Shown: positions 429 to 21,167 of the stretch, in pieces
Layout: every line of letters starts with the position of its first letter
How positions within the stretch are numbered: the first letter of the stretch is position 1
NCBI RefSeq assembly: GCF_041886205.1
Contig: NZ_CP169029.1
Length of the DNA stretch: 64,000 nt
Source: Escherichia coli
GTDB taxonomy: Bacteria; Pseudomonadota; Gammaproteobacteria; Enterobacterales; Enterobacteriaceae
Direction: 5' to 3' (one strand)
Position numbers and translations under genes: made by a program
Notes under the pieces: model-generated
The model's database searches: none
What the model saw: only the letters and a program-made list of their open reading frames with translations
Told to the model about the DNA's origin: nothing

Positions 429-1736
429 CTATCTCTGCCCAAACAGGTTAACGACATTGTTTTCCTGCTGTTGCTGGTGGTTATTCACCCGAGACTCCCA
501 GATCTCGAGAGCCTTACGCTTTTCAACCAGGTAATCGTAACGATCGTAGTGTTTAGAACTCACATCCTGTAGAGCATGGTTCTGAATGCGGTCACGCAGG
601 TCTTTAGCAATACCCGCTTCGCCCATCAGGGTCTTACAGGTACGACGAATATCACGCGCAATAAAAGATGGGCTCAACGCAAAGTGTTGCCGGTAATAAA
701 TGATGGCTTGTGCAAAGCTGTCTGTGCGTAGATGCTGTTCCGGTTTAATACGCTGCGGGAAGATGTAAGGACTCTGACTATGATTCTCAGCTTTCAACTT
801 TTCGAGTATCTCAATGGCTGACTCAGTCAAAGGCACCAGATGATCCCTTTTATTTTTCGACACATCCGCCACTATCAATAACGTTTTTTCTTCCCAGTTA
901 ACGGCATCCCAACGGCTGGAAACCAGTTCATGAGGCCGCTGGCCACCCGTATAGACACACAAGTTAAGCAATTGGCTGATTAACGGGCCGACCTTTGGTG
1001 CTTTAGGGAAATCCCCCATCAGTTGCTGCAACTCATCCAGCTTCAGCCAGTTTGTCCCTGCCTTCTCCGCTGCAGATTGTTTGGGTATGACACTCACTGG
1101 GTTCATTTGAAGCCCAAACATCACGTTCTGCTGGTGGTTTGCCGGATCGTTGTCAGCCTTCAACCCATAATTGAATGCTGCCATCAGATAAGAGCGAACA
1201 CGATTTGCTTCAACTGATGCGCCACGTTTAATAATGGTGGCCAGAATTTGTTTGATATGAGCGGGGATAACGTCACGCGCTTTCGTCGCTTTAGGTATAA
1301 ATGGATAGGTTTCTTTTTCCAGCCGGTACAAAACCTGTTGCCAGGTGCGTTTACCGTCTTCACGCATTTTGGTGGTGTAACCCAAAATGAGTTGCTCAAT
1401 GCTGCCTTTGAGCTGGTCTTCACGTTGTTGTTGTTCGGCAGAGAAAAGCTGCTCTGCGATTTCAGCTTTGGGGTCTTTCCCTTCTTTAAGAAGACCCGCA
1501 TGTTCTTTACATTGCTGTCTTGCCTGCGCGAGTGACAACTCTGGGAAACGGCCAAGCAGAATGAATTGCCGTTTTCCTTGCCAAAAATAACGATAGTAAA
1601 ATACTCGCTGACCCGATGGCTCAACTTTCACCCCTAATCGCCCTGCCCCACGCTCACCACTTTTATCCCATTCATAATAAGCAGTAGTCTTCGGCTTCAA
1701 GCCACTAATCATTGAGACAGTTAAATTATCAGCCAT
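429..1736 (-). CDS. int: Tyrosine recombinase / phage integrase, P4 family (start probably Met at 1736; longest ORF extends to 1838)
   Basis: N-terminal arm-binding-like segment (FYYRYFWQGKRQFILLGRFPELSLAQARQQ) and C-terminal catalytic region ending HYDRYDY with conserved R/H/R/Y pattern. Confidence 0.8.
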   Translation of the reverse strand: MADNLTVSMISGLKPKTTAYYEWDKSGERGAGRLGVKVEPSGQRVFYYRYFWQGKRQFILLGRFPELSLAQARQQCKEHAGLLKEGKDPKAEIAEQLFSAEQQQREDQLKGSIEQLILGYTTKMREDGKRTWQQVLYRLEKETYPFIPKATKARDVIPAHIKQILATIIKRGASVEANRVRSYLMAAFNYGLKADNDPANHQQNVMFGLQMNPVSVIPKQSAAEKAGTNWLKLDELQQLMGDFPKAPKVGPLISQLLNLCVYTGGQRPHELVSSRWDAVNWEEKTLLIVADVSKNKRDHLVPLTESAIEILEKLKAENHSQSPYIFPQRIKPEQHLRTDSFAQAIIYYRQHFALSPSFIARDIRRTCKTLMGEAGIAKDLRDRIQNHALQDVSSKHYDRYDYLVEKRKALEIWESRVNNHQQQQENNVVNLFGQR

Positions 1737-1930
1737 AGTATTTTTCAGTCCTTTGTTCGTTACGTCACCCAGTCTGATTCTGGGTGACGTAGTGGGTGAC
1801 GTAAGGATGATACTGAAGGTAAAAACGCAGAACAACATGAAACAACAACCAGCAAATAACCTACTGTTATTTATTAAATTTAATCTAACGTGAAAAAAGA
1901 TGCAAAATCATGAAACATGGATTTCATATG

Positions 1931-2731: not shown

Positions 2732-4081
2732 ATGTTAGTTAGTAAAAGCAACGAATTTAACACTAGCGCAGTTTTGGCTAGCAGGAATTATAATGAAAAC
2801 AATTCTTCCAACCCCATGGGGCTACTAGCTTATAGTATTTTAAATTTAATTTGTAAGGAAGCTGCCTCAGGGACGTACAACGGTGCTATTGAAATTTTAC
2901 AAAAAATGATGTCTGAATGTAAATATCAAGAAGGCAACGCCTTTGTCATTATGGGATCTGGAGAACAATTAAAACGTATTAAATATGATGTTGATGAAAA
3001 TAACTTAAAAGTATTCAACGTACACTTTAATAATAATGAAGAGTTAGTTACTGATGGTGAGCCTGACGTAGTATGTTTAAGCAAGCAGGAGTGGGAAAAT
3101 CTTCTCATTAAATTAAAACCGGAGATTAAAGAAAATGTGTTTTCTGAAAATAACAAATCATCGAGAGAAAATAATGTTGATCAGTATGTTCAATCCGCTA
3201 AAAGAAATGAACAGGCCCTTTTCGATAATATAATAAAAAGTGATTTTCATGTTGCTTCACTTCAGCCAGGTAGTACGCGTAGTGTTATTTCAGAAACGCC
3301 ACGAAATGTCTGTATGGAACCACGTAATTCCTATGAAACCAAAATAGATGAGATTTCATCTTTGTCAGAGTCAAAGGAACACTCCATAGATATTCAAGAA
3401 AAAACAGATGCGTTTGTGAATGAGTTCAAGGGGATATTATTTGATAAAAATGGAACGTCTTCAGAGTTTCTACTTAATTTTTATGAATGTTGCTATGAGT
3501 TTTTACCAAGAGCGCAGCCTCAGGATAAAATCGATAGCTATAATTCAGCACTGCAAGCTTTTTCCATCTTTTGTTCATCTACGTTGACACATAATAATAT
3601 AGGCTTTGATTTCAAATTATTTCCAGAAGTCAAGCTGTCTAGAGAACATCTTGAAACGGTATTCAAATACAAAAATGGCGATGATGTCCGGGAGATAGCC
3701 AAAATTAACATTACTCTCCAAAAAGAAGAGGGTGGTTTATATAATTTACGTGGATTAGATTTTAAGGGATGCTTCTTTTCTGGACAGAACTTCAGTAACT
3801 ATGATATTCAATATGTGAACTGGGGAACGTCATTGTTTGATCTTGATACTCCATGTATTTTTAATGCGCCTGCTTACAACAAGAGTAATGAAAAATCATT
3901 AGAACGCGTCAGCGAAAACGGTTTAAGTGGAGTCTTGTCTGATCGTAATAAAAAAATAAAACTCATCACGGGCGTGGCACCATTCGATGATATTTTATTT
4001 ATGGATGACGACTTTGATGATAGTTCCTCTGAGGATGATCCCGTTGAGAATAGTCCTGTTGTGACTAGTCCCCTTGTATAA
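2732..4081 (+). CDS. AT-rich hypothetical protein, ypjC-like, with pentapeptide-repeat-like segment near C-terminus
   Basis: 449-aa ORF, low GC, Asn/Ser-rich; segment NLRGLDFKGCFFSGQNFSNYDIQYVNW resembles pentapeptide repeats; position matches ypjC of K-12. Confidence 0.55.
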   Translation: MLVSKSNEFNTSAVLASRNYNENNSSNPMGLLAYSILNLICKEAASGTYNGAIEILQKMMSECKYQEGNAFVIMGSGEQLKRIKYDVDENNLKVFNVHFNNNEELVTDGEPDVVCLSKQEWENLLIKLKPEIKENVFSENNKSSRENNVDQYVQSAKRNEQALFDNIIKSDFHVASLQPGSTRSVISETPRNVCMEPRNSYETKIDEISSLSESKEHSIDIQEKTDAFVNEFKGILFDKNGTSSEFLLNFYECCYEFLPRAQPQDKIDSYNSALQAFSIFCSSTLTHNNIGFDFKLFPEVKLSREHLETVFKYKNGDDVREIAKINITLQKEEGGLYNLRGLDFKGCFFSGQNFSNYDIQYVNWGTSLFDLDTPCIFNAPAYNKSNEKSLERVSENGLSGVLSDRNKKIKLITGVAPFDDILFMDDDFDDSSSEDDPVENSPVVTSPLV

Positions 4082-4389: not shown

Positions 4390-4680
4390 CCACGACTGAC
4401 TGAAGAACTGCGTGCTCAGGGTTACCACTTCAACGTAAAACCGTGGCAGGAGGTCCGGACTGAAAAAACTGCTCAGGACATTATCGGCAGGGTACGCACT
4501 GGTAGTCTGTAAACTGAACCGACTGGGGCGCAGTATGTGGCATCTTGTCGTGCTGTTGGAGGAGCTGTGCGAACGTGGTATTAACTTTCGTGCTCTGGCC
4601 CAATCTATATTTGCCCAACAATGGGGGGACGGAAGCTGTAAAAGTAAAACAATCTGCGATCTCAGAGTTATTGTGTGATT
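4390..4680 (+). pseudogene. pinH: Serine invertase (Pin/Hin family) fragment, pinH-like pseudogene
   Basis: Translation KLNRLGRSMWHLVVLLEELCERGINFRALAQSI matches the resolvase/invertase catalytic-domain core; frameshifted upstream, no intact N-terminus or HTH. Confidence 0.7.
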
Positions 4681-5007
4681 TTTATGTGAGCAGAAGATAT
4701 TCATCAGAAACGATTATGTAAATCATTTTATTTTGCCGACTGCCTGATTGTCGAAAGAAAAGAATACGCCCGGGTTTCCTGAATAGATTGACTTTTTTAT
4801 CCAACCACACTTCAGCGCACTGCGTTTAAAAAATGCCTCATTCTTATGCGGAATATCATCATTTCATCATGATGTCTTTGATGAGCGGTGAACACAATAC
4901 ACTTGCGCTGTCTCTTCAGGATGAATCCCCTGGTCTGGTGCCTGTGGGCTGATGTTGCAGCAAAGCTAAGGTCGCTTAAACGCTACTCAGTATTCACTTT
5001 TCAGAGG

Positions 5008-8000
5008 ATGAAATTTATGAACAGGACCAGTCCCTATTATTTTCGCCGCTCAGTACTTTCCTTATTGATATCTGCCCTGATATATGCTCCGCCCGGGATG
5101 GCGGCCTTTACTACTAATGTTATTGGTGTGGTAAATGATGAGACTGTAGATGGCAACCAACGAGTAGATGAACGAGGTACAACAAATAACACTCATATTA
5201 TCAACCATGGCCAGCAGAGTGTTTATGGCGGAGTATCTAATGGAAGTATTATTGAATCGGGTGGATATCAAGATGTTGGAAGGAATAACAATTATATGGG
5301 GCAGTCTAATAATACAACCATTAACGGAGGAAGACAGACAATTCATGACGGGGGCATTTCCACCGGTACGATAATCGACAGTGGCAATCAGGACGTTTAT
5401 ACAGGTGGTATCAGCAATGGAACGACAATTAAGGGTGGTAATTCACACATAAGTGGGGGGACTGCGAATGGAACAATCATTGATGGTGGCAGCCAACGAG
5501 TAACAACGCAGGGGCATGTTGACAGTACAACGATAAATAAGTCTGGCTCTCAGGACATCACGCAAGGAAGTCTGGCGACGAACACAATCATAAATGGTGG
5601 ACGACAGTATGTTGAACAGAGCACAGTAGGAACAACCACCATTAAAAATGGCGGTGAGCAAAGAGTATATGAAAGCCATGCGCTGGACACGACGATTGAA
5701 GGTGGAACTCAGTCTCTGAATAATAAGTCAACGGCAAAAAATACTCAGATCTATTCTGGTGGTACGCAAATTGTTGATAACACCAGCACCTCGGATGTTA
5801 TTGAAGTTTATTCCGGTGGCGTGCTTGATGTTAGTGGTGGTACGGCAACAAATGTTACCCAGCACGATGGTGCAATTTTAAAAACAAACACTAACGGTAC
5901 GACGGTGAACGGTACGAATAGTGAAGGTGCATTCTCCATCCACAATCACGTGGCAGACAATGTGTTGCTGGAAAACGGTGGTCATTTAGACATAAACGCA
6001 TATGGTTCGGCAAACAAGACTATTATCAAAGATAAAGGAACAATGTCAGTTTTAACCAATGCTAAAGCTGATGCGACCCGAATAGATAACGGCGGGGTAA
6101 TGGATGTTGCCGGAAACGCGACCAATACCATAATTAATGGTGGCACACAGAATATTAATAATTATGGCATAGCCACGGGAACCAATATCAACAGCGGAAC
6201 GCAAAATATCAAGAGCGGCGGGAAAGCTGACACGACAATTATATCCTCCGGGAGCCGGCAGGTTGTTGAGAAAGATGGTACGGCAACTGGCAGCAATATT
6301 AGCGCCGGAGGCTCGCTGATTGTCTATACCGGCGGTATTGCACATGGGGTTAACCAGGAGACGGGCAGTGCTTTAGTTGCCAACACGGGTGCAGGGACTG
6401 ATATCGAAGGATACAACAAGCTCTCTCACTTCACTATTACCGGAGGGGAGGCTAATTATGTTGTGCTGGAAAATACCGGCGAACTGACGGTAGTGGCTAA
6501 AACCTCGGCGAAAAATACTACCATTGATACTGGCGGTAAGCTGATTGTCCAGAAGGAGGCTAAAACAGATAGCACCAGACTTAATAATGGCGGCGTTCTG
6601 GAGGTTCAGGACGGTGGTGAGGCTAAGCATGTTGAGCAACAATCCGGCGGCGCATTAATTGCTTCCACGACCTCCGGAACACTTATCGAAGGAACCAACA
6701 GTTATGGTGATGCTTTCTACATCAGGAATTCAGAAGCTAAAAATGTAGTGCTGGAAAACGCTGGCTCATTAACAGTCGTCACTGGTTCCCGGGCAGTTGA
6801 TACGATTATTAATGCCAATGGCAAAATGGATGTTTATGGAAAAGATGTTGGCACTGTACTTAATAGTGCTGGCACCCAAACAATATATGCCAGTGCCACT
6901 TCTGATAAAGCAAATATCAAAGGTGGCAAGCAAACGGTATATGGTTTAGCCACTGAAGCAAATATCGAAAGTGGTGAACAAATTGTTGATGGTGGGTCAA
7001 CAGAGAAAACACACATCAATGGTGGCACGCAAATCGTTCAGAATTATGGTAAGGCAATCAATACCGATATCGTCTCTGGCCTACAACAAATTATGGCAAA
7101 CGGGACAGCGGAAGGTTCCATTATTAATGGGGGTTCACAGGTAGTTAATGAGGGCGGTCTGGCTGAAAACTCGGTGCTTAATGACGGCGGCACACTCGAT
7201 GTGCGGGAGAAAGGCAGCGCAACGGGGATACAGCAGAGTAGCCAGGGCGCTTTGGTTGCAACCACCAGGGCGACGCGGGTCACAGGAACACGCGCGGATG
7301 GCGTCGCGTTCAGCATCGAGCAGGGTGCGGCGAACAATATCCTGCTGGCAAATGGCGGCGTGTTAACCGTGGAGTCAGACACCTCTTCTGACAAAACACA
7401 GGTCAATATGGGCGGACGGGAGATCGTCAAAACAAAAGCCACTGCGACAGGCACGACGCTCACCGGCGGTGAACAAATTGTCGAGGGTGTGGCGAATGAG
7501 ACAACAATTAACGACGGCGGAATACAAACAGTTTCAGCTAACGGAGAGGCAATAAAAACAAAGATCAATGAAGGCGGTACGCTGACAGTCAACGATAATG
7601 GCAAAGCGACAGATATCGTCCAGAACAGCGGTGCCGCTCTCCAGACGAGCACGGCTAACGGTATTGAAATCAGCGGTACTCACCAGTACGGTACTTTTTC
7701 CATTTCCGGCAATTTAGCGACCAATATGTTGCTGGAAAATGGCGGTAATTTATTGGTATTAGCAGGTACCGAAGCTCGCGACTCCACGGTTGGCAAGGGT
7801 GGGGCAATGCAAAACCTGGGTCAGGACTCCGCCACAAAGGTTAACTCTGGCGGGCAATATACCCTTGGGCGGTCAAAAGATGAGTTTCAGGCTCTGGCCC
7901 GGGCAGAAGATCTCCAGGTCGCTGGCGGTACGGCAATCGTCTACGCAGGTACGCTGGCGGATGCATCGGTCAGTGGCGCGACAGGAAGCCTGTCGTTAAT

Positions 8001-9597
8001 GACGCCACGGGATAATGTTACGCCAGTTAAACTCGAAGGGGCGGTCCGGATTACCGATAGCGCGACATTGACTCTGGGAAATGGCGTCGATACCACGCTT
8101 GCCGACCTGACGGCTGCCAGCCGGGGCAGTGTCTGGCTTAACAGCAATAATTCCTGTGCAGGTACCAGCAACTGCGAATATAGAGTAAACAGTTTGCTAC
8201 TCAACGACGGTGATGTTTATTTGTCAGCACAAACAGCAGCGCCTGCCACAACTAACGGTATCTACAATACGCTGACAACCAATGAACTTTCCGGTAGCGG
8301 TAATTTCTACCTGCATACCAACGTTGCAGGCTCCCGGGGCGATCAACTGGTCGTCAACAACAACGCCACTGGTAATTTTAAAATCTTTGTTCAGGATACC
8401 GGCGTCAGCCCACAGTCTGACGACGCGATGACGCTGGTGAAAACAGGGGGAGGGGATGCTTCGTTTACGCTGGGCAATACCGGCGGTTTCGTTGATCTTG
8501 GGACCTATGAGTATGTCCTGAAAAGTGACGGCAACAGCAACTGGAACCTGACCAATGATGTCAAACCCAACCCGGACCCCATCCCAAATCCAAAGCCAGA
8601 CCCAAAACCCGATCCAAAGCCAGACCCAAATCCAAAACCAGACCCTACTCCCGATCCAACGCCGACACCCGTTCCGGAGAAACGCATTACGCCTTCTACG
8701 GCAGCCGTACTCAATATGGCAGCAACATTACCGTTGGTATTTGATGCTGAGCTAAACAGTATTCGCGAGCGGTTGAACATAATGAAAGCGAGTCCACACA
8801 ACAATAATGTCTGGGGGGCGACGTATAACACCCGTAATAATGTCACCACCGATGCGGGTGCCGGGTTTGAGCAGACGCTGACCGGAATGACAGTGGGGAT
8901 CGACAGCCGTAATGATATTCCTGAAGGAATTACCACGCTAGGCGCTTTTATGGGCTATTCCCATTCACATATCGGTTTTGATCGCGGAGGACATGGCAGT
9001 GTGGGCAGTTATTCTCTGGGCGGCTATGCCAGTTGGGAACATGAAAGTGGTTTCTATCTGGACGGTGTCGTGAAGCTGAACCGTTTTAAAAGTAACGTAG
9101 CAGGTAAAATGAGCAGCGGTGGAGCCGCCAATGGCAGTTACCACAGCAACGGGCTGGGCGGTCACATTGAAACCGGGATGCGATTTACCGATGGTAACTG
9201 GAACCTGACGCCGTATGCATCGTTAACGGGGTTCACCGCTGATAACCCCGAATATCATTTATCCAATGGCATGGAATCGAAATCAGTCGATACCCGCAGT
9301 ATATATCGTGAACTGGGTGCAACGCTGAGTTACAACATGCGTCTGGGGAACGGTATGGAAGTTGAGCCGTGGCTGAAGGCGGCTGTGCGCAAAGAATTTG
9401 TCGATGATAACCGGGTGAAGGTGAATAATGACGGTAATTTCGTCAATGATTTGTCGGGCAGACGTGGAATATACCAGGCAGGTATTAAAGCCTCATTCAG
9501 TAGTACGTTAAGCGGGCATCTCGGGGTGGGGTATAGCCATGGTGCCGGTGTGGAATCACCGTGGAACGCGGTGGCTGGTGTGAACTGGTCGTTCTGA
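5008..9597 (+). CDS. ypjA: Large adhesin-like autotransporter (ypjA-like); start assigned to the signal-peptide Met, ORF opens at 4888
   Basis: Signal peptide (MKFMNRTSPYYFRRSVLSLLISALIYAPPGMAA), long passenger of about 19-residue Gly/Thr/Asn-rich repeats, Pro-Asp-Lys linker, C-terminal beta-barrel ending VNWSF. Confidence 0.85.
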   Translation: MKFMNRTSPYYFRRSVLSLLISALIYAPPGMAAFTTNVIGVVNDETVDGNQRVDERGTTNNTHIINHGQQSVYGGVSNGSIIESGGYQDVGRNNNYMGQSNNTTINGGRQTIHDGGISTGTIIDSGNQDVYTGGISNGTTIKGGNSHISGGTANGTIIDGGSQRVTTQGHVDSTTINKSGSQDITQGSLATNTIINGGRQYVEQSTVGTTTIKNGGEQRVYESHALDTTIEGGTQSLNNKSTAKNTQIYSGGTQIVDNTSTSDVIEVYSGGVLDVSGGTATNVTQHDGAILKTNTNGTTVNGTNSEGAFSIHNHVADNVLLENGGHLDINAYGSANKTIIKDKGTMSVLTNAKADATRIDNGGVMDVAGNATNTIINGGTQNINNYGIATGTNINSGTQNIKSGGKADTTIISSGSRQVVEKDGTATGSNISAGGSLIVYTGGIAHGVNQETGSALVANTGAGTDIEGYNKLSHFTITGGEANYVVLENTGELTVVAKTSAKNTTIDTGGKLIVQKEAKTDSTRLNNGGVLEVQDGGEAKHVEQQSGGALIASTTSGTLIEGTNSYGDAFYIRNSEAKNVVLENAGSLTVVTGSRAVDTIINANGKMDVYGKDVGTVLNSAGTQTIYASATSDKANIKGGKQTVYGLATEANIESGEQIVDGGSTEKTHINGGTQIVQNYGKAINTDIVSGLQQIMANGTAEGSIINGGSQVVNEGGLAENSVLNDGGTLDVREKGSATGIQQSSQGALVATTRATRVTGTRADGVAFSIEQGAANNILLANGGVLTVESDTSSDKTQVNMGGREIVKTKATATGTTLTGGEQIVEGVANETTINDGGIQTVSANGEAIKTKINEGGTLTVNDNGKATDIVQNSGAALQTSTANGIEISGTHQYGTFSISGNLATNMLLENGGNLLVLAGTEARDSTVGKGGAMQNLGQDSATKVNSGGQYTLGRSKDEFQALARAEDLQVAGGTAIVYAGTLADASVSGATGSLSLMTPRDNVTPVKLEGAVRITDSATLTLGNGVDTTLADLTAASRGSVWLNSNNSCAGTSNCEYRVNSLLLNDGDVYLSAQTAAPATTNGIYNTLTTNELSGSGNFYLHTNVAGSRGDQLVVNNNATGNFKIFVQDTGVSPQSDDAMTLVKTGGGDASFTLGNTGGFVDLGTYEYVLKSDGNSNWNLTNDVKPNPDPIPNPKPDPKPDPKPDPNPKPDPTPDPTPTPVPEKRITPSTAAVLNMAATLPLVFDAELNSIRERLNIMKASPHNNNVWGATYNTRNNVTTDAGAGFEQTLTGMTVGIDSRNDIPEGITTLGAFMGYSHSHIGFDRGGHGSVGSYSLGGYASWEHESGFYLDGVVKLNRFKSNVAGKMSSGGAANGSYHSNGLGGHIETGMRFTDGNWNLTPYASLTGFTADNPEYHLSNGMESKSVDTRSIYRELGATLSYNMRLGNGMEVEPWLKAAVRKEFVDDNRVKVNNDGNFVNDLSGRRGIYQAGIKASFSSTLSGHLGVGYSHGAGVESPWNAVAGVNWSF

Positions 9598-9607
9598 CCA
9601 TCAACGA

Positions 9608-9760: not shown

Positions 9761-9771
9761 GCTGGCGGAGT
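9761..9771. other. Putative distal att core (imperfect repeat of ssrA 3' end)
   Basis: GCTGGCGGAGT resembles GCTGGCGGGAGT at the tmRNA 3' end (window 21340-21351); short and imperfect. Confidence 0.3.
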
Positions 9772-9825
9772 CTGAATAACATTTGCAACATAATGTTTTT
9801 ATTGTTTATTTTCCAATTCAACTTT

Positions 9826-9853
9826 CATTGGTATACCTAAGCGTATACCAATG
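9826..9853. repeat. Inverted repeat CATTGGTATAC-ctaagc-GTATACCAATG; candidate integrase arm-type site
   Basis: Perfect 11-bp arms; near-identical motif recurs at 21199-21223 at the opposite end of the element. Confidence 0.5.
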
Positions 9854-9937
9854 GCGATTTGTTGCAATGATTCCTGTGGTTAAGCGAACTTGTTGTTGAA
9901 TAGCTCACATCAAGAAAAAAACTTTTTTTACGGAAAA

Positions 9938-10030
9938 CTGTTCACACTGTTCACTCGCCATTATTTGTCTTTAATTTCAATGTGATATACGGTGAATAGT
10001 CCGTGAACAGTGAACACTTTACTGTTCACT
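9938..10030. repeat. Cluster of TGTTCAC iterons (P4 ori-like, alpha-binding type)
   Basis: At least five copies of TGTTCAC/GTGAACA in both orientations just downstream of the alpha gene. Confidence 0.6.
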
Positions 10031-10040
10031 TTCCGGGATT

Positions 10041-10070
10041 TCAGGTAAAAAAAGACCGGCTGATGCCGGT
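10041..10070 (-). terminator. Rho-independent terminator downstream of alpha
   Basis: On minus strand GACCGGCATCAGCCGGTC hairpin followed by TTTTTTT. Confidence 0.55.
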
Positions 10071-10079
10071 CCGGGTAGG

Positions 10080-12413
10080 TTATGTCGCGGTGGTTTCGTC
10101 GCACCGGGGCAGCCAGTCGGCGTTGCTTTCCTCCCTGAGCGCAAGGTTCGTCTGCATCCCCTGATTTGTTCGCCGCCTGGCGTAATTCAGCCCGTACTCT
10201 TTCAGCATCGATGACAGCCCTTTGCCGAACATGGTCAGGCTGAGGGTGTTCTTGTAGCCGTGCGCCTCCATGTAAACCAGATAGGCGTGATACAGGTACA
10301 GGCGCGGCTGTCGCGGGATGATATTCGCATTCCCCATGTACATACCGTCAGGCTCGGGCAGCGCCTCCAGATAGCCACAAAAATCGAATGTCGGGTCAGC
10401 GTCGCGCTTGATGCTGAGTGCCTCGTCGGAGTTCTGCTGCGACTGGAGCAGTGTGCGCGCGGTCATCGGGTCGCTGAACGTCTGCATAAGCTGACGCACG
10501 ATGACGGCCAGCTCGCGGGCAATTTTATCTTTCAGCTTCGGGTCACGCTCCTCCGGGGCAATCTGTTCCGGGAAGTGCATTATCACCCGGCGACGCGACA
10601 CGCCGCCGCTGCGGTCGGTGAAGCGCATCGGATTGTTGTTTACGGCCAGTATCACCGCCGGAATATGGGTGGAGTACGCATCGCGGTATTTCGGGTCAAC
10701 CGAGACCGCATCCCCGCCGGTGATGGCCTTGAGTCCTGCCCCGTCACCGCTCCATTTCTCCTGGTCAGGCAGACGTATCAGCGAGAAGCCAATCAGCGCC
10801 GCGCGCTCGCGGGGGGATTCCAGCGTTTCGATAGTCGCTGACGTGGCGTTATCTTCCCCGGCGAGCATGGTCGCTATTTCGGCCAGAATACTTTTCCCGC
10901 TGCCACCGGGACCGGTCACTTCGAGGAAGAGCTGCCAGTCGTAGCGGTTCGCCAGCACCATAAACAGCGCGGCGAGTATCACGTCACGTTTATCGGCACG
11001 CGAACCGGCGGCGCGGTCGAGCCAGCGCCAGAAATTCGGCGCGTGCGTCTCCAGCGTTTCCCCCTCCACCGGCGGGGTGAAATCCACGTCGCACAGGGTG
11101 CGCAGCCAGTGCGTTTTGCTGTGCGGGCTGAATATACCGGTACTGGTATCAAGCACGCCGTTGCGAAAGCCAATCAGCCGCCGTGGCGGGGCATCCTGCT
11201 GCGGAATAATCAGTTTCAGGGTGTCCACCACCGAGGCAATTTTCCCCGACGAAAACGGGGCGCGCAGACGCTGGAACAGCCCGGCCACGTCGCGCGCAAA
11301 GTCTGACGGCGGAATGATTTTCCATATACCGGCTTCATAGCGGGACAGGAGCTGCCCGTTCGCATCCACCGCCAGCGCTTCGCCGTAATGCTCATGCACC
11401 CGCATGGCTTTCTCACTGGTGCTCATGGCGGTAAATTCCGCCTCGCTCATGGTAGAGAAAGGGCTTTCAGCCGGTGGCCGGATGGCGTCATACATGGCTT
11501 TACGCGTGGCCTCCCCACCGTGCTGTGTATACGCATCATTCCAGTCACCGAACACCGGCGGCAGGGCGACCACGCCCTCACAGGACTCTGCGGCCGCAGA
11601 CGCTTTGGTCTGGCCGTCGCCGTTAAGGTCACGGTCGGCGGCAATGACAATCCGGCAGGCCGGGTATTTGTGACGGGCAAGGCTCGCCAGAGAAAGGAGG
11701 TTCACCGACGACAGCGCCACCATGACGGTTTCGCCGGTCAGGTGATGCACGGTGAGCGCGGTCGCGTAGCCCTCCGCTATCCACAGCCGTTTTCCCGCCT
11801 CTTTTTTCCCGTCGAGAATATGACATGTCCCTTTTACCTGCCCCCCTTTCAGGGTGCGCTTGAGACCGTCCGCGTTAATGAGCTGGACGTTAACCAGTGC
11901 GCCGCTATCGTCATACAGCGGGACAACCACATCCCCGGCACGGTACGTCACACCGCCGGTTTTGTGCATGGCCGTCAGTACCTGACATTCCCGGCCGGGA
12001 AAGCCCTTGCGGGTGAGGTAGGCGTTGCCGGTGGCCGGTTGGGTTTTCTCCATCAGTCTGGCGGCCAGCGCGGCCGCCGCTTTGCGGTCGGCCTCCGTTT
12101 CAGCGTCTGCGGCCGCAGTCACCGCCGGGGATACCGGAGGCAGGTTGCCGGTCACGGCGTTCACCTTCCCGGCCGCCTCTGACGGGGTCACGCCGAACAC
12201 TTTCTCAACCAGTTTCAGACCGTCCCCCGCGCCGCACTGGTTACAGAACCACGTCCCGCGTCCCTCCTTATCGTCAAAGCGAAAGCGGTCGGAGCCGCCA
12301 CACACCGGACAGGCCTGATGACGGTTTTTGATGACCGTTACCCCCAGCGCCGGGAGAATGCGCGGCCAGTGGCCGCACGCCTGTTTCACGGTGTCCGTTA
12401 CGTTCATTTTCAT
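10080..12413 (-). CDS. P4 alpha-like primase-helicase (777 aa)
   Basis: N-terminal zinc-binding cysteine pairs (CPVCGG ... CNQCG), central primase region, Walker A (GPGGSGKS) helicase domain; size identical to P4 alpha. Confidence 0.9.
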   Translation of the reverse strand: MKMNVTDTVKQACGHWPRILPALGVTVIKNRHQACPVCGGSDRFRFDDKEGRGTWFCNQCGAGDGLKLVEKVFGVTPSEAAGKVNAVTGNLPPVSPAVTAAADAETEADRKAAAALAARLMEKTQPATGNAYLTRKGFPGRECQVLTAMHKTGGVTYRAGDVVVPLYDDSGALVNVQLINADGLKRTLKGGQVKGTCHILDGKKEAGKRLWIAEGYATALTVHHLTGETVMVALSSVNLLSLASLARHKYPACRIVIAADRDLNGDGQTKASAAAESCEGVVALPPVFGDWNDAYTQHGGEATRKAMYDAIRPPAESPFSTMSEAEFTAMSTSEKAMRVHEHYGEALAVDANGQLLSRYEAGIWKIIPPSDFARDVAGLFQRLRAPFSSGKIASVVDTLKLIIPQQDAPPRRLIGFRNGVLDTSTGIFSPHSKTHWLRTLCDVDFTPPVEGETLETHAPNFWRWLDRAAGSRADKRDVILAALFMVLANRYDWQLFLEVTGPGGSGKSILAEIATMLAGEDNATSATIETLESPRERAALIGFSLIRLPDQEKWSGDGAGLKAITGGDAVSVDPKYRDAYSTHIPAVILAVNNNPMRFTDRSGGVSRRRVIMHFPEQIAPEERDPKLKDKIARELAVIVRQLMQTFSDPMTARTLLQSQQNSDEALSIKRDADPTFDFCGYLEALPEPDGMYMGNANIIPRQPRLYLYHAYLVYMEAHGYKNTLSLTMFGKGLSSMLKEYGLNYARRRTNQGMQTNLALREESNADWLPRCDETTAT

Positions 12414-12424
12414 GGTGTTCTCCC

Positions 12425-12745
12425 TCAGTGCAGCGCCGGTGCGGTGATATGACGGGCGCAGAGTTCATCCATCACGGCCAGCCCGAGAAAGGACAGCGAC
12501 GGCGCGGCCTTGAGTGGTCCGGCTTCCATTAAATCTTCGAGCAGGGCACAGGCAATCTGACGGCCTTTTTCCTCGCCATGCTGGCGCAGGTAGAAGCCCT
12601 CCAGCTCGGTCGCAATGGCGCTTTCCAGCGTACTGAGCGTGAGCTGCGGGTAGCGGTGCTGACGTTCGCACAGGGTCAGCCATGCACAGGCCACGGCGCG
12701 GCGATAGAGCGCGGCGCGTAAGACGGGCGTTAATGGCTTTTTCAT
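12425..12745 (-). CDS. Hypothetical protein (106 aa), satellite left operon
   Basis: ORF abutting the alpha start in the same operon. Confidence 0.45.
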
Positions 12746-13002
12746 ACGTTGCGCTCCCCGGCCAGCCAGCGCTGATTGCAGCGTTCGACCACACCTTCAA
12801 GCCGGGCGGTCATGAGGTAAATCACCGAGGTGAGCTGTAGCTGCTGCGCCGGATTGTGGCGCAAAGAGGTGCAGTCCTGCACCTGCATCAGTTCGCCGAC
12901 GAGCTGGCCGACGTTGCGAAGATGTTCGAGGCATTCGAGGTCTGCCCGGCTGATGGTGGGCTGGTTTATATTCTGCGACCGTTCCGTACTGTTAACAGGC
13001 AT
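12742..13002 (-). CDS. Hypothetical protein (about 86 aa; start at Met with AGGAG upstream)
   Basis: ORF with Shine-Dalgarno-like AGGAG before ATG at 13002; 4-nt overlap with downstream gene. Confidence 0.4.
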
Positions 13003-13073
13003 TATTTCGTCTCCTGAGGACGTGCGTATCCCTGCGCAGATACGCACATTTTATTTTGGGGTGTCGTTTTTAA

Positions 13074-13523
13074 TTACAGATAACGGCGGTAGCTGTTATC
13101 CGGTTTTATTTCCGTTTCCAGCCTGAAATTATTCCGCCATTTATGCGCCACCGGCGCCGGGCGTTTAACCGGGGGAATATCATCAGGATAGTTATCGATA
13201 TTCCGCGCCCGGTATTGCTGTAATGCCGGGTCGGCCGCTATTTCGCGTAATACGGCGTGGCGGTTTTCAGGGTTGCGCTTAAATACATCGGGATGCTCAC
13301 AGGTAAAGTCCCGCAAAAAACGACTGAGCGGAATTTCTGCCATACGGCCACCGGCAATAATACGAATGAGGATGGTGTAGGTGCGCCGGTAAGGGTTCCA
13401 GACCAGCCCCGGACAGCGGTACGGCATATCCCACGGAATACCGTCGGCCAGCACGCCCGACACCACCACATCAGGAAATCCTGTACAGCGATATGTTTCG
13501 CCCGGCTGAGGGAAATCAAACAT
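13074..13523 (-). CDS. P4 orf151-like protein (149 aa)
   Basis: Position and size match P4 orf151 upstream of alpha; GGAGG before ATG. Confidence 0.5.
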   Translation of the reverse strand: MFDFPQPGETYRCTGFPDVVVSGVLADGIPWDMPYRCPGLVWNPYRRTYTILIRIIAGGRMAEIPLSRFLRDFTCEHPDVFKRNPENRHAVLREIAADPALQQYRARNIDNYPDDIPPVKRPAPVAHKWRNNFRLETEIKPDNSYRRYL

Positions 13524-13815
13524 GGTGCTCCCCTCCGTTTCCCGACGTCGTGGCGAGAAAGTCACGGCACAGGCCTTTGGCTTTCAGCTCTTCCAGGACG
13601 TAGCTGACGTCCTCATGGATATAACTAAAAATCTGCGGCAGGTATAGCTGGTGTAAACCGTTCAGCTCACGGCGCAGCAAATCTCCACCGATGAACTGCG
13701 AGACGGCGCTGGCGCGATTGAGTTTATGGTACGCCTCAATGCTGAGGTGTTCCTGCATGGGGTTAAGGTCATCACGACGCGCTGAGATGGTCTGAGGGGT
13801 GTTTTTATTATGCAT
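13516..13815 (-). CDS. Small protein (99 aa), position of P4 epsilon
   Basis: In-frame Met inside a longer ORF; overlaps neighbours by 8 nt; position equivalent to epsilon. Confidence 0.45.
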
Positions 13816-14005
13816 GTGACACCTCCACAACCGGCAGACGGGCGGCAAGGGAAAGCACGTATTCCCGGACAAGGGTGCGGCGGGCGGCCAGCTCGTCACC
13901 GGCCACGGTGCGGAGCATACAGATACGGGGTTTACGGTCTGCACGACGGACGGCGGCAAACACAAAGACAAACTGAGGGTGTGACGGGGTGAGGGTCGTA
14001 GCCAT
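13808..14005 (-). CDS. Small protein (65 aa), position of P4 kil/eta
   Basis: AGGAGG 7 nt upstream of ATG at 14005; overlaps downstream gene start. Confidence 0.35.
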
Positions 14006-14403
14006 AAGGCAACCTCCTTCGAGTAGCAAATTATTGCTATCGCCGGAGTTCTCACGCTCAGTGGCGATAGCCCAGACGGGGGTGAGAATACCGGCCTCGA
14101 AGAATACCGGCCAGCCCGAGGGCTGCCCCGCCTGAGCTACCATTGACATGACAGCATGATATGCGATTGCGGACAGGAGACACAAAGTGACGTCTGCACG
14201 ACGATCCGCACACCACGCCATTATCTGGCGCTCTGTGGCGTTAGTTGCGACACAAAAAAAGACGCATGGCGCGTCTGGTGTCGCCTTCGAGTTACTCGGG
14301 TTCTCACGCCCGGTTACCGATTTTGCGGCAACAGCAAAACTGTACCAGGAAACACACAACGGATGCAAGCCAGAAAAAGGGGCTTTGTGAAATCGGCTCT
14401 GAT

Positions 14404-14670
14404 TCATGCGTCGTATTTCCGGTTGCGGTGCGCGACACGTTCTTCCATCCATGCCGTGATTTCAGACTGTAGCCAGGCGACATTTTTACCCCCGAGGGAA
14501 ACCTGCGCCGGGAAAGCGTTACGGGCGATTAAATCGTAGAGCGTGGAGCGGGACAGGCCGCACTGATGAATGACTTCCGGGAGACGTAAAAAACGTTCCT
14601 GAGTCGGGGCTGAAACCGGCATCGGGTGCGCGGCAGTGGGGGACGGTGGTGCTGATGAAACTGTGTGCAT
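14404..14670 (-). CDS. Vis/AlpA-family transcriptional regulator (start may be internal Met at 14622)
   Basis: [28 protein letters not shown] is an AlpA-type HTH; 88 aa as for P4 Vis; divergent from sid. Confidence 0.7.
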
Positions 14671-14944
14671 AACGCTACCTCGTTAATATCCGCAGAGATC
14701 CGGACGTATCCGTCCGGTATCAGGTAGCGCTCTATTTTGTGAATATTTTTCTTCAATGCAACAGAGGCATGTTGTGTCGTGGAGCAGTTTTGTCTGTTAT
14801 TTAAGCAGCGACCTGAAAATATGAAAAATAATTGGCACATGACGCGCTGAGACGTTCATAAATCACAGTCAATTGATATCGCCTATCAATAGATAAAAAT
14901 ATAATTATTAAAACAATGACTCTCTAAAAGGAGCTTGCCGAAAC

Positions 14945-15050
14945 CAGTGAACAGTAGTGAACAGTTGGTGAACACTTTTCTCTCAACTGTTCACTCTTTA
15001 ATTTATTGTTTTATTTATATTTTTATACTGAGTGAACAGTAGTGAATAGT
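14945..15050. repeat. Second TGTTCAC iteron cluster in the divergent vis/sid control region (crr-like)
   Basis: Six copies of GTGAACA/TGTTCAC in an AT-rich intergenic region about 5 kb from the first cluster. Confidence 0.5.
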
Positions 15051-15218
15051 TATATGTAAAAAAACAAATAGAGTGAGGGGTTTTCCTGCGACCTTTCTCT
15101 GGCCAGCCGGGTTTTTAAGTCCTGTTTGTGCCATGTCTGCGACAACGGCAATGAATCGAGTTGTTGTCTGAGGGACGGCAGAATGGCGTCAGGTTGAAAA
15201 CACAGAGAGAACCCGACG

Positions 15219-16022
15219 ATGAAACCAGATTTGTTTACCGCAGTAATGAAAACCATCGGCAGCACGCAGGATGAGAACATCCGCACGGCCATTGACAGCG
15301 CACTGGATACCCTTAACGAGAAAGCAAACCAGAACGCAGAGGCCACGATAAATAATGCGCTTGAGGCATTCAGCAAGGCCAAATCCGCGCACACGGAAAA
15401 TATGCTGAAACTGAATGATATTGATGCGGCCATTACCCGCAGTGAGAAAGAGCGTCAGAACGCCCTGAATGAAAGTGCCGAAGCGGAACAGAACTGGCGT
15501 ACCCGTTTTCGCGAACTGCGCGGCATGATGACCCCGGAACTGAAAGCCGAACACAGTCAGCGAGTGGCCGGTCGGGAGCTGGCGGAGGAATTCACCGCCC
15601 TGATTGATGAGCTCAACGATGATAAAGCCAGTACCATGCTGGCCGCCTGTACATCAGGAGATAAGTACGTCGGCACGCATTTTACGGTGTTCTCTGCCTA
15701 CTCCCGGAATGAGTGGGCGACCGTGATGAAAGACATCCCTCCCTCACTGGTGCGCGCATTTGCGTTACGTCTGCGTGAACTCGAAATGAAAGGAGAAGAA
15801 CACCCTCACAACGTTCTCATTCAGGAACTGGGGGAGAATGTACTGGCGCAAAGCAGGTACTACACATTCAACATGGCGCAGGAGCCGGTAATTTCAAAAA
15901 TTGGGCTTCACCGTCCGGCACTCACCGGCGTGGATATGAAACTCTATAAAAGCCCGGTTCTCAGAATGGCGCGGGCTAAAGAGCTGGCACAGAAGAAAAA
16001 ATCGCGGGGGGTTAAGCCATGA
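15219..16022 (+). CDS. sid: Sid-like capsid size-determination (external scaffold) protein
   Basis: Similarity to P4 Sid (NWRTRFRELRGMMTPELKAEHSQRVAGRELAEEF); first gene of sid-delta-psu. Confidence 0.75.
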   Translation: MKPDLFTAVMKTIGSTQDENIRTAIDSALDTLNEKANQNAEATINNALEAFSKAKSAHTENMLKLNDIDAAITRSEKERQNALNESAEAEQNWRTRFRELRGMMTPELKAEHSQRVAGRELAEEFTALIDELNDDKASTMLAACTSGDKYVGTHFTVFSAYSRNEWATVMKDIPPSLVRAFALRLRELEMKGEEHPHNVLIQELGENVLAQSRYYTFNMAQEPVISKIGLHRPALTGVDMKLYKSPVLRMARAKELAQKKKSRGVKP

Positions 16023-16261
16023 TGCGCTGTCCGTACTGCAAACAGGCTGCCCATGTCCGTACCAGCCGTTACCTGTCGGATAACGTCAAACAGAGCTACC
16101 TCCAGTGCGTGAATGTCTTTTGCTCCGCAACCTTTCGCACCACCGAGTCTATCGACGAGGTAATACGGCCACCGGCAGAAGAAAAGCCCGAACCGCCGCA
16201 GACAGTACCAGAAACACCGCCCCGAATTCTGGACTGCGCCCGGTCATCGCTGCGCCACTGA
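16019..16261 (+). CDS. Delta/Ogr-type zinc-finger late transcription activator
   Basis: MMRCPYCKQAAHVRTSRYLSDNVKQSYLQCVNVFCSATF with C-x2-C ... C-x4-C pattern typical of P2 Ogr/P4 Delta; 4-nt overlap with sid. Confidence 0.85.
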   Translation: MMRCPYCKQAAHVRTSRYLSDNVKQSYLQCVNVFCSATFRTTESIDEVIRPPAEEKPEPPQTVPETPPRILDCARSSLRH

Positions 16262-16277
16262 TTCAGGAGAAAAGACA

Positions 16278-16853
16278 ATGGCACGAGCACTACTGGAACA
16301 GGCCTTTGAAACCTGTCAGAAGAATAAATCGGACTGGGTGAGCAGCAAGTCAGCACTGGCGCGGGCTGAAATGGCGCTGAAAGAGCTGGAGCTGACCTGC
16401 ACCCGTTATGAACCGGAGGCCGCACAGGCGCTGCGGGATGATATTGACCTGAAAAAATGGGCGGTAAATCAGTCGGCCGGGCAGTACATCCGGTCACATG
16501 AGGCCGTGCAGCGTATCAGTATCCGGCGTCAGCTCCACGCCTTTATGCAGGTAAGCGGCGACGCGCTGGCCGCCGCACTGGCACCGGAATTAATGCATCT
16601 CTGCGAACAACCTGACATTGTCAGAGAACGGGCTCTCGACCGGGCGGCCGCCAGTGTTCGCGAAGCGCTGTCCGTTTATGTAACCCGCGGAGGAAATATT
16701 GATTACGCAGAGGATGATCGCGACATTCTGACAACCATCGGTTTCCGGCCTGACAGAGCATCGAGAGACGACAACCGGGCAAAATATACGCCTGAACAGA
16801 GTCAGATTTTCATGCGCCGACAGGCCGCGCAGACCCGCAAAAAATCCGCATAA
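16278..16853 (+). CDS. psu: Psu-like polarity suppression / capsid decoration protein
   Basis: KWAVNQSAGQYIRSHEAVQRISIRRQL and ALAAALAPEL and DILTTIGFRPD match P4 Psu; 191 aa. Confidence 0.85.
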   Translation: MARALLEQAFETCQKNKSDWVSSKSALARAEMALKELELTCTRYEPEAAQALRDDIDLKKWAVNQSAGQYIRSHEAVQRISIRRQLHAFMQVSGDALAAALAPELMHLCEQPDIVRERALDRAAASVREALSVYVTRGGNIDYAEDDRDILTTIGFRPDRASRDDNRAKYTPEQSQIFMRRQAAQTRKKSA

Positions 16854-17017
16854 AACGCCCCGAAAATACCCGTCTTTTTAATAAAAATAGCCATGCATGC
16901 CTACGCTGCATGGCTTTGCATGCAAAAACCTGAATTTTCCACACCCCGCCGCACCAGCACTGGCGCGGCCTGAGTCCCTTCATGCGCCTGCATTAAAAGT
17001 GCCCCACGAAGCGGGCA

Positions 17018-17036
17018 GGCGTGGCGGGGAGAGCAT
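17018..17036. other. cos-like cohesive-end site
   Basis: GGCGTGGCGGGGAGAGCAT matches 16 of 19 positions of the P2/P4 cohesive end as I recall it; lies after psu as in integrated P4. Confidence 0.45.
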
Positions 17037-21148: not shown

Positions 21149-21167
21149 TGTGGCCGCTCCTTCATGA

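What the first reader, a model, noticed from the sequence alone, without database searches (positions are those of the whole stretch)
5008..9597. ypjA-like autotransporter with a highly repetitive passenger and a Pro-Asp-Lys linker
The passenger consists of dozens of degenerate ~19-residue units (pattern ...GG.Q.V..G.A..T.I..GG...) consistent with a long beta-helix, followed by PNPDPIPNPKPDPKPDPKPDPNPKPDPTPDPTPTP (8569-8680) and a C-terminal beta-barrel. The tandem and short-period DNA repeats make length variation by recombination plausible. It sits between two mobile elements, so it may be island-associated.
Basis: partly seen in the sequence, partly recalled or inferred. Interest (0 to 1): 0.3.

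Follow-up and report, generated by a model that had tools for sequence, protein, structure and literature searches.

The report
Known E. coli autotransporter adhesin ypjA/ehaD
This is the already-described E. coli surface adhesin gene ypjA (ehaD), intact and ordinary; only its short proline-rich spacer changes length between strains, while its ~50 beta-helix repeats almost never do.

Summary
The ORF is real and is ypjA/ehaD itself, not merely ypjA-like. It is 100% identical to the RefSeq allele of strain LHM10-1 and 97.8% identical to K-12 ypjA, with the same 1526-aa length. The likely start is ATG 5017, not 5008.

Architecture is confirmed:
- a 29-aa signal peptide
- 50 degenerate 16-24-aa units (period 18-19, z about 9)
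- a pertactin-type autochaperone domain
- a Pro-Asp/Lys/Asn spacer
- a C-terminal beta-barrel

The length-variation idea is only partly right. At DNA level only the spacer is a tandem repeat. I found six spacer lengths (35 to 49 aa), all in-frame, including perfect 12- and 24-nt duplications. They are stable within clones such as K-12 and O157.

Passenger unit number is essentially fixed. One genome, in a sample of 45 full-length alleles, lacks a single unit. Larger in-register differences of 12 and 11 units, and a hypervariable (NP)n spacer, occur only in the paralogue at the ycgV locus.

The commonest changes are gene decay: a 1320-bp deletion, IS insertions and frameshifts. A near-full-length copy is present in about 45% of 5,426 genomes.

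The mobile-element context is confirmed, with a P4-like satellite in ssrA downstream and an integrase upstream. The gene is already known and of low interest.

The parts
   Evidence: 100% match to the LHM10-1 CDS annotated 'adhesin-like autotransporter YpjA/EhaD'. Same length as K-12 ypjA. SD-like AGAGGA at 5003-5008.
5017..5103 (+). Sec signal peptide, 29 aa (MNRTSPYYFRRSVLSLLISALIYAPPGMA|A)
   Evidence: Read from the sequence: basic n-region, hydrophobic core, GMA|A site. A 29-aa YpjA signal peptide is listed in PMC13101318. No signal-peptide predictor was run.
5185..7959 (+). Passenger repeat region: 50 degenerate units of 16-24 aa (mostly 18-19), presumed beta-helix rungs
   Evidence: Pfam AIDA x11 and TIGR04415 x9. 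Sequence homology to solved beta-helix passengers: 7KO9 AidA-I family, 7KOH/4KH3 Ag43, 4Q1Q TibA, E=1e-27 to 1e-36.
6908..6955 (+). The one passenger unit (KANIKGGKQTVYGLAT) seen deleted in another genome. It is bounded by the 11-nt direct repeat AAGCAAATATC (6908-6918 and 6956-6966).
   Evidence: strain AR_0061. This is the most similar adjacent unit pair in the gene, 76% identity (family D2). The deletion junction was found as a single piece only in AR_0061.
8185..8553 (+). Pertactin-type autochaperone domain at the C-terminal end of the passenger
   Evidence: Pfam PF03212, E=2.4e-45. Matches P.69 pertactin 1DAB residues 414-534. The EhaD autochaperone domain is listed in PMC5767081.
8560..8682 (+). 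Pro-rich spacer VKPNPDPIPNPKPDPKPDPKPDPNPKPDPTPDPTPTPVPEK (41 aa), an imperfect 6/12/42-nt tandem repeat and the only length-polymorphic part
   Evidence: TRF arrays at 8583-8663 and repeat family D1. Allele lengths of 35/39/41/43/45/49 aa. Sample frequencies.
8683..9594 (+). Translocator: predicted pore-spanning alpha-helical segment (RITPSTAAVLNMAATLPLVFDAELNSIRERLN...) followed by the beta-barrel, ending in ...NWSF
   Evidence: PF03797 covers nt 8809-9528. TIGR01414 runs to the last residue. BrkA translocator 3QQ2 aligns to residues 1244-1526, E=4e-23. The helix assignment is an inference from that homology.
4833..4952 (+). Conserved 39-codon ORF just upstream of ypjA; status as a gene unknown
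   Evidence: Annotated WP_001120794.1 in every ypjA locus fetched. A paralogous copy precedes the ycgV-locus gene.
4442..4609 (+). Remnant of a recombinase/invertase gene (pinH-type pseudogene)
   Evidence: PGAP annotation of the identical LHM10-1 sequence, transferred by the coordinate offset.
2732..4081 (+). ypjCB (DUF5507 + DUF5508), low G+C
429..1838 (-). Tyrosine integrase of an upstream element. Window sequence left of about 1917 differs from LHM10-1.
   Evidence: Pfam Arm-DNA-bind_3, Phage_int_M and Phage_integrase.
9761..21323 (.). P4-like satellite prophage inserted in the 3' end of ssrA, between ypjA and ssrA. Contents: primase 10080-12413(-), Ash 13808-14452(-), Psu 16278-16853(+), HEPN_LA2681 protein 17105-18685(+), integrase 19961-21148(-).
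   Evidence: Absent from the otherwise identical LHM10-1. Empty-site junction seen in SRY206. Pfam domains.
21333..21695 (-). ssrA (tmRNA), the integration site
   Evidence: ARAGORN.

Best explanation
Window 5017-9597 is an intact allele of the E. coli gene ypjA (ehaD in O157:H7), a classical type Va autotransporter adhesin of the AIDA-I/Ag43 group.

Mechanism, inferred from homology to solved and studied relatives:
1. The 29-aa signal peptide takes the protein through Sec.
2. The C-terminal ~280 residues form an outer-membrane beta-barrel with a helix in its pore.
3. The passenger is threaded out and folds, nucleated by the pertactin-type autochaperone domain, into a long right-handed beta-helix with one ~18-19-aa unit per rung (about 50 rungs).
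4. The Pro-Asp/Lys/Asn segment between autochaperone and pore helix acts as an extended spacer that holds the helix away from the barrel.

Published work reports that forced expression of YpjA/EhaD promotes adhesion and biofilm formation.

Variation:
- The spacer is an imperfect hexanucleotide-based repeat that gains or loses 6-24 nt in frame, most likely by slippage. These changes are slow enough to be fixed within clones.
- The passenger units are too diverged at DNA level to recombine often, so unit number is stable among ypjA alleles.
- The dominant evolutionary process at this locus is loss or inactivation.
For: Identity:
- 100% over 4901 nt to LHM10-1 ypjA.
- 97.8% to K-12 ypjA, with the same neighbours (pinH remnant, ypjCB, ssrA side).

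Domains. Repeats.

Function, from the literature:
- YfaL, YpjA and YcgV are involved in adhesion and biofilm formation (Roux 2005, cited in PMC3796261).
- EhaD is associated with biofilm formation (PMC4076661; PMC12547504).
- YpjA is placed in the SAAT-containing group 4 with a predicted full-length beta-helix and an unknown mechanism (PMC9289746).

Spacer variation:
- Every indel in the spacer is a multiple of 6 nt and maps to about nt 8620.
- The +12 (CCAGACCCAAAT) and +24 (CCAAAACCCGATCCAAAGCCAGAC) variants are perfect tandem duplications on an otherwise identical spacer.
- All sampled K-12 derivatives share one length, and all sampled O157:H7 strains share another.

Passenger stability: of 45 full-coverage alleles, 30 have identical length, 9 carry one 6-nt non-repeat indel, 5 differ by a non-multiple of 3, and 1 lacks a 48-nt unit.

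Purifying selection: pN/pS is 0.09-0.39.

Decay:
- Only 2435 of 5426 genomes have at least 80% of the gene.
- A 1320-bp deletion class exists.
- IS insertions or truncations are seen.
Against: - No expression, secretion or adhesion data exist for this allele.
- The crude promoter scan found no sigma-70-like site on the + strand upstream of the start. This fits a silent gene but proves nothing.
- No structure was predicted here; the beta-helix and spacer geometry rest on sequence homology.
- Frequent inactivation across the species suggests the gene is dispensable in many niches.
- The allele census is based on evenly spaced samples of 60 rows from a collection rich in lab strains and O157, not on all genomes.
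Confidence: 0.9

Rival explanations
1. The gene is a decaying relic. It is intact here by chance, not maintained by selection, and contributes nothing to the cell.
For: - More than half of complete E. coli genomes lack a near-full-length copy.
- Recurrent independent lesions occur: the 1320-bp deletion class (about 6 of 60 sampled rows), IS2/IS3/ISVsa5 insertions, and 1-nt frameshifts.
- No promoter-like site was found upstream.
- Published phenotypes needed forced expression; that detail is from my own knowledge of Roux 2005. The review only cites the paper.
Against: - The 4.6-kb ORF is uninterrupted.
- pN/pS between intact alleles is 0.09-0.39, and synonymous divergence reaches 0.19, so intact alleles have been under purifying selection for a long time.
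- Length is conserved between alleles that are 5% diverged.
Confidence: 0.15
2. The repeats make ypjA a contingency (rapidly switching) locus. Repeat-number changes in the passenger and spacer would arise at high frequency within populations, giving antigenic or phase variation.
For: - The spacer is a genuine tandem repeat with at least six length alleles and two perfect recent duplications.
- The paralogue at the ycgV locus has a pure (NP)n tract with 8 different lengths in 9 sampled genomes.
- One in-register unit deletion lies between 11-nt direct repeats.
Against: - All spacer changes are in frame, so they cannot switch expression on or off.
- The spacer is identical in about 20 sampled K-12 derivatives separated by decades of laboratory passage, and in all sampled O157:H7 strains.
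- TRF detects no tandem DNA repeat in the passenger.
- Unit number changed in 1 of 45 sampled alleles, and that junction was found in one genome only.
Confidence: 0.05
3. ypjA is cargo of one of the flanking mobile elements and arrived with it.
For: - It lies between an integrase-bearing element and a P4-like satellite, next to a recombinase pseudogene and low-G+C DNA.
- The whole ssrA-glaH segment is absent in strain N64.
Against: - ypjA sits 160 bp from ssrA in the same orientation in strains with no insert.
- It is in the same slot in K-12, where a different element (CP4-57 genes ypjF, yfjZ) lies in the position occupied here by the satellite.
- The satellite's left junction is at 9760, outside the gene, and an empty site is seen in LHM10-1 and SRY206.
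- So ypjA predates both present neighbours. At most it belongs to an older, degraded island.
Confidence: 0.1

Closest known systems
E. coli K-12 YpjA (b2647) / O157:H7 EhaD
   Same: Same gene and same locus. 97.8% (K-12) and 96.7% (O157-type) nucleotide identity. K-12 has the identical 1526-aa length and the identical spacer. Domain order is the same.
   Different: The window allele has a divergent 5' third (pS 0.149 against 0.014 elsewhere, compared with K-12), so it is a mosaic allele. The O157-type spacer is 2 aa longer and has a different unit order.
Paralogous autotransporter at the ycgV locus (ymgJ-minE), long form as in ETEC4068, also named ypjA by PGAP
   Same: 91.7% aa identity over aligned positions. 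It shares the upstream small ORF, signal peptide, autochaperone domain and barrel.
   Different: - It lacks exactly 12 and 11 passenger units, as in-register gaps of 217 and 199 aa.
- Its spacer is a pure (NP)n tract of about 17-36 units that differs in nearly every genome sampled.
- In many genomes it is reduced to a 344-nt remnant.
Self-associating autotransporters Ag43, AIDA-I and TibA
   Same: The same 19-aa AIDA/strand-loop-strand repeats and beta-helix passenger, with significant sequence similarity to their solved structures. YpjA is placed in the same phylogenetic group in PMC9289746.
   Different: - It scores far below the NCBIfam equivalog cut-offs: Ag43 346 against 1200 bits, AIDA-I 266 against 1200.
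- The passenger is about twice as long.
- There is no adjacent heptosyltransferase gene such as aah or tibC; the upstream neighbour is ypjCB.
- Self-association has not been shown.
Bordetella pertactin (P.69), repeat regions R1 and R2
   Same: It has a pertactin-type C-terminal passenger domain. A proline-rich repeat near the C-terminal end of the passenger varies in copy number between alleles on a slow, between-strain timescale (PMC8931430).
   Different: Pertactin's repeats are GGxxP and PQP loops within a 16-rung helix and are immunologically studied. The YpjA spacer is a PD/PK/PN dipeptide run located after the autochaperone domain, and its function is untested.

Membership tests
Classical (type Va) autotransporter | C-terminal outer-membrane beta-barrel translocator ending in an aromatic residue | tested here: met
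   PF03797 E=2.4e-46; TIGR01414 E=1.2e-99 to the last residue; BrkA translocator 3QQ2 E=4e-23; C-terminus ...NWSF.
Classical (type Va) autotransporter | N-terminal Sec signal peptide | tested here: met
   Judged by inspection of residues 1-29. A 29-aa YpjA signal peptide is listed in PMC13101318. No dedicated predictor was available.
Classical (type Va) autotransporter | Single polypeptide carrying the passenger between signal peptide and barrel, with an autochaperone domain for beta-helical passengers | tested here: met
   One uninterrupted ORF. PF03212 Pertactin domain at residues 1060-1182 of the 1529-aa translation, E=2.4e-45.
Classical (type Va) autotransporter | Actual surface display or secretion of the passenger | not testable with these tools
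   Requires experiment.
YpjA/EhaD orthologue group | Near-identity to reference YpjA over the full length | tested here: met
   100% to WP_072025354.1 (LHM10-1); 97.8% nt identity to K-12 ypjA; same 1526 aa.
YpjA/EhaD orthologue group | Conserved chromosomal position (ileY / ypjCB / pinH remnant / ypjA / ssrA side) | tested here: met
   The window differs only by the satellite inserted in ssrA and the upstream integrase element.
AIDA-I-type / self-associating autotransporters (SAAT) | Passenger built of ~19-aa AIDA repeats forming a beta-helix | tested here: met
   PF16168 x11 and TIGR04415 x9. Period 18-19 and 50 units. Homology to Ag43, TibA and AidA-I structures. The fold itself is inferred, not predicted here.
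AIDA-I-type / self-associating autotransporters (SAAT) | Self-association causing cell aggregation | not testable with these tools
   PMC9289746 states that the mechanism for YpjA is unknown.
AIDA-I-type / self-associating autotransporters (SAAT) | Orthology to Ag43 or AIDA-I (NCBIfam equivalog cut-off) | tested here: not met
   auto_Ag43 scores 345.7 bits against a cut-off of 1200; auto_AIDA-I scores 266 against 1200. It is a relative, not an orthologue.
AIDA-I-type / self-associating autotransporters (SAAT) | Adjacent dedicated heptosyltransferase (as aah-aidA, tibC-tibA); not universal in the group | tested here: not met
   The upstream genes are ypjCB (DUF5507/DUF5508), a recombinase remnant and a 39-aa ORF. 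No glycosyltransferase is present.
Simple-sequence contingency (phase-variable) locus | Repeat-length changes that shift the reading frame or promoter spacing and so switch expression | tested here: not met
   All spacer indels are multiples of 6 nt and lie inside the ORF.
Simple-sequence contingency (phase-variable) locus | High-frequency variation within a clone | tested here: not met
   Spacer length is constant among all sampled K-12 derivatives and among all sampled O157:H7 strains. Within-culture heterogeneity could not be tested.

The most novel reading that the evidence does not exclude
The in-frame length of the proline-rich spacer may be a selected 'stand-off' setting. It spans 35-49 aa at ypjA and up to 89 aa as (NP)n in the ycgV-locus paralogue. 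Slippage in the hexanucleotide repeat would let lineages match how far the adhesive beta-helix projects to the thickness of their O-antigen or capsule layer. That would be a non-switching, length-tuning kind of contingency repeat in E. coli autotransporters.
Probability: 0.1. Interest if true: 0.4.

Novelty: already known. Interest (0 to 1): 0.1.

Why it matters
It matters little for discovery. The gene, its family, its general mechanism and its patchy distribution are already in the literature and in routine annotation.

The useful outcomes are calibrations:
- Degenerate protein repeats that look recombinogenic are not so at DNA level. Only the near-perfect short-period spacer actually varies.
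- Spacer length could serve as a minor typing marker, and as a handle for testing how adhesin stand-off distance interacts with surface shielding.
- Annotation pipelines give the name ypjA to two different loci, which can confuse presence/absence studies of this adhesin.

Tried and rejected
- TRF and repeat finding on the passenger found no tandem DNA arrays, only 60-76% identical scattered copies. Frequent unequal recombination among units was therefore rejected.
- Phase variation was rejected because all spacer indels are in frame and clonally stable.
- Gene conversion from the ycgV-locus paralogue as the source of the divergent 5' third: at sites where the window and K-12 differ, the paralogue agrees with the window 12 times and with K-12 17 times. 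This is uninformative, so no claim is made.
- Positive selection on the variable N-terminal third: pN/pS is 0.29-0.39 with high pS. This points to a recombinational mosaic with somewhat relaxed constraint, not positive selection overall.
- The promoter scan upstream of ypjA found no + strand consensus match. The tool is too crude to conclude anything.
- The PADLOC scan of the satellite's low-G+C cargo gave no hits for the HEPN_LA2681 protein or its neighbour.
- The 1320-bp deletion class was examined as a possible repeat-mediated event. It joins passenger nt ~7802 to barrel nt ~9113 at a short imperfect GGCA..GGTGG..GC microhomology, not between repeat units.
- Structure prediction and large protein-database searches were deliberately not run. 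Sequence homology to solved relatives already answers the fold question for a known gene.

Full report
**What is there**

A single ORF runs to a stop at 9597. A megablast of window 4800-9700 against 5,426 complete E. coli genomes gave a 100% full-length match to strain LHM10-1, where the CDS is annotated 'adhesin-like autotransporter YpjA/EhaD'. It also gave 97.9% matches to K-12 derivatives.

PGAP places the start at the ATG that corresponds to window 5017. The sequence supports this. From 5017 the product is 1526 aa, the same length as K-12 YpjA.

**Architecture**

- Pfam finds 11 AIDA stretches (E=2e-145), a Pertactin domain (residues 1060-1182 of the 1529-aa translation) and the Autotransporter beta-domain (1268-1507).
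- NCBIfam finds the autotransporter barrel model to the last residue and 9 copies of the strand-loop-strand repeat. Ag43 and AIDA-I equivalogs score far below their cut-offs.
- By sequence alone the passenger matches solved beta-helix passengers: an AidA-I family adhesin 7KO9, Ag43 7KOH/4KH3/7KOB and TibA 4Q1Q.
- The autochaperone region matches P.69 pertactin, and the C-terminus matches the BrkA translocator 3QQ2.

Repeats were checked in two ways. A BLOSUM62 autocorrelation of the passenger peaks at lags 18 and 19 (z=9.3 and 8.3 against 300 shuffles), with harmonics at 35-37 and 54. Residues 57-981 (nt 5185-7959) divide completely into 50 units, 40 of them 18 or 19 aa long, with consensus ..T.I..GG.Q.V.....A.

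**Does length vary?**

At DNA level, Tandem Repeats Finder reports arrays only in the spacer (8583-8663; periods 6, 12, 18 and 42). Passenger units are scattered copies of 60-76% identity.

I fetched eight further ypjA-locus sequences and aligned them with the window's gene.
- Every indel in the spacer maps to about nt 8620 and is a multiple of 6.
- The only other common indel is a 6-nt non-repeat difference at 5990.

Spacer lengths between the conserved NLTND and RITPS motifs, found in all: 35, 39, 41 (window and K-12), 43 (O157 type), 45 and 49 aa. The 45- and 49-aa forms are perfect tandem duplications of 12 nt (CCAGACCCAAAT) and 24 nt (CCAAAACCCGATCCAAAGCCAGAC) on a spacer otherwise identical to the window's. 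This is the signature of slippage.

| Spacer length relative to the window | Genomes (of 58 informative) |
|---|---|
| same | 30 |
| 6 nt shorter | 21 |
| 6 nt longer | 7 |

All K-12 derivatives in that sample share one length, and all O157:H7 strains share another. The variation is therefore between lineages, not rapid.

For the passenger (nt 5017-8560), 45 evenly sampled full-coverage alleles gave the following:

| Passenger length relative to the window | Alleles (of 45) |
|---|---|
| identical | 30 |
| 6-nt indel at 5990 | 9 |
| differs by a non-multiple of 3 (frameshift or sequencing error) | 5 |
| 48 nt shorter | 1 |

The 48-nt case (strain AR_0061) is an exact loss of one unit, KANIKGGKQTVYGLAT (6908-6955). 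It is bounded by the 11-nt direct repeat AAGCAAATATC, at the most similar adjacent unit pair in the gene. Its junction was found as an unbroken match only in that one genome. Lower-identity single-piece matches further down that list cannot be strictly excluded.

**The paralogue shows what the family can do over longer times**

Some strains carry, at the ycgV locus between ymgJ and minE, a gene that PGAP also calls ypjA.
- It is 91.7% identical in protein over aligned positions.
- It lacks two in-register blocks of exactly 12 and 11 units (217 and 199 aa).
- Its spacer is a pure (NP)n run: 89 aa in ETEC4068 and 51 aa in O17_K12a.
- Nine sampled genomes gave eight different lengths, all multiples of 6 nt.

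Repeat-number change by recombination between units, and microsatellite behaviour of the spacer, are therefore real in this family. At ypjA itself the interrupted PD/PK/PN spacer is much more stable, and the unit number is essentially fixed.

**Decay is the main theme at the locus**

- Only 2,435 of 5,426 genomes have at least 80% of the query, and 3,103 have any passenger match.
- A recurrent 1320-bp deletion joins nt ~7802 to ~9113 at a short imperfect microhomology. It removes the autochaperone domain, the spacer and part of the barrel (about 6 of 60 sampled rows).
- Other lesions are IS insertions or truncations and frameshifts.
- Intact alleles nevertheless show purifying selection, with pN/pS of 0.09-0.39.
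- Alleles are mosaics. Against K-12 the window has pS=0.149 in nt 5017-6216 but 0.014-0.015 in the remaining two thirds, and it is identical to K-12 from about nt 7400 to 9200, spacer included.

**Context**

Downstream, 9761-21323 is a P4-like satellite prophage with integrase, Psu, Ash, a primase-helicase and a low-G+C cargo that includes a HEPN_LA2681 protein. It is inserted in the 3' end of ssrA (tmRNA at 21333-21695). It is absent from the otherwise identical LHM10-1, and the empty site is visible in SRY206.

Upstream lie a recombinase pseudogene remnant, ypjCB and a tyrosine integrase at 429-1838. 'Between two mobile elements' is therefore correct.

However, ypjA occupies the same slot 160 bp from ssrA in strains without inserts. 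In K-12 a different element lies in the position occupied here by the satellite. So ypjA is not cargo of either present neighbour. The larger ssrA-glaH segment that includes it is missing in strain N64, so it belongs to the flexible genome.

**How it works**

The following is inferred from family knowledge and was not tested here:
1. Sec export via the 29-aa signal peptide.
2. Insertion of the barrel in the outer membrane.
3. C-to-N emergence of the passenger, with folding nucleated by the autochaperone domain.
4. A ~50-rung beta-helix displayed on a proline-rich spacer.

Reviews report that YpjA (K-12) and EhaD (O157) promote adhesion and biofilm formation. They also note that the mechanism and structure remain undetermined. 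The closest analogy for the variable spacer is the proline-rich repeat region R2 of pertactin, whose copy number differs between alleles on a slow timescale.

**Verdict**

This is a correctly spotted but already known gene. The recombination and length-variation hypothesis holds only for the spacer, where the changes are small, in frame and lineage-stable. Interest is low.

Noticed in passing
window 9761-21323: An 11.6-kb P4-like satellite prophage sits in the 3' end of ssrA, with integrase, Psu, Ash and a primase-helicase. It is absent from the otherwise identical strain LHM10-1. Its low-G+C cargo (17105-19801, G+C 0.34-0.37) encodes a 526-aa HEPN_LA2681-domain protein and a 328-aa protein. 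Neither has a PADLOC match, and the second has no Pfam match. This could be an undescribed defence cargo in the P4 hotspot.
   Followed up: partly
L010 1718-5182; L016 2319-5669; L018 3501-6899 (ycgV locus of other strains): A second gene annotated 'ypjA' lies at the ycgV locus between ymgJ and minE. It is 91.7% identical in protein to YpjA and is missing exactly 12 and 11 passenger units. Its spacer is a pure (NP)n hexanucleotide microsatellite of about 17-36 units, with 8 different lengths in 9 sampled genomes. Sharing one name across two loci can confuse adhesin presence/absence surveys.
   Followed up: partly
L013 4188-4531: In many genomes the ycgV-locus autotransporter is reduced to a 344-nt remnant that fuses its upstream region and extreme 5' end to the last ~350 nt of the barrel.
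   Followed up: partly
window 5017-6216 versus 6217-9594: The ypjA allele is a mosaic. Synonymous divergence from K-12 is 0.149 in the first 1.2 kb (the distal tip of the passenger) but about 0.015 in the rest, with zero differences from about nt 7400 to 9200. This implies recombination between alleles. pN/pS is also highest (0.3-0.4) in the tip.
   Followed up: partly
window 4833-4952 (+): A 39-codon ORF (MPHSYAEYHHFIMMSLMSGEHNTLALSLQDESPGLVPVG, WP_001120794.1) is conserved 64 nt upstream of ypjA in every strain fetched. A paralogous copy lies upstream of the ycgV-locus gene. Whether it is translated or regulatory is unknown.
   Followed up: no
window 1-1917: An integrase-bearing element upstream of ypjCB differs from the one in LHM10-1; similarity starts only at window 1917. 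No tRNA-Ile (ileY) is found where K-12 and CE10 have it, upstream of ypjCB.
   Followed up: no
L017 (strain N64, CSF isolate): The whole region from ypjA through ypjCB and the K-12 ygaQ side is absent. glaH lies about 1 kb from a P4-like satellite at ssrA.
   Followed up: no
L018 (NZ_JBRAXZ010000002.1): A 517-kb record labelled as a plasmid carries the chromosomal minCDE-ycgV region. It is probably a mislabelled chromosomal contig or a very large chromid-like replicon.
   Followed up: no
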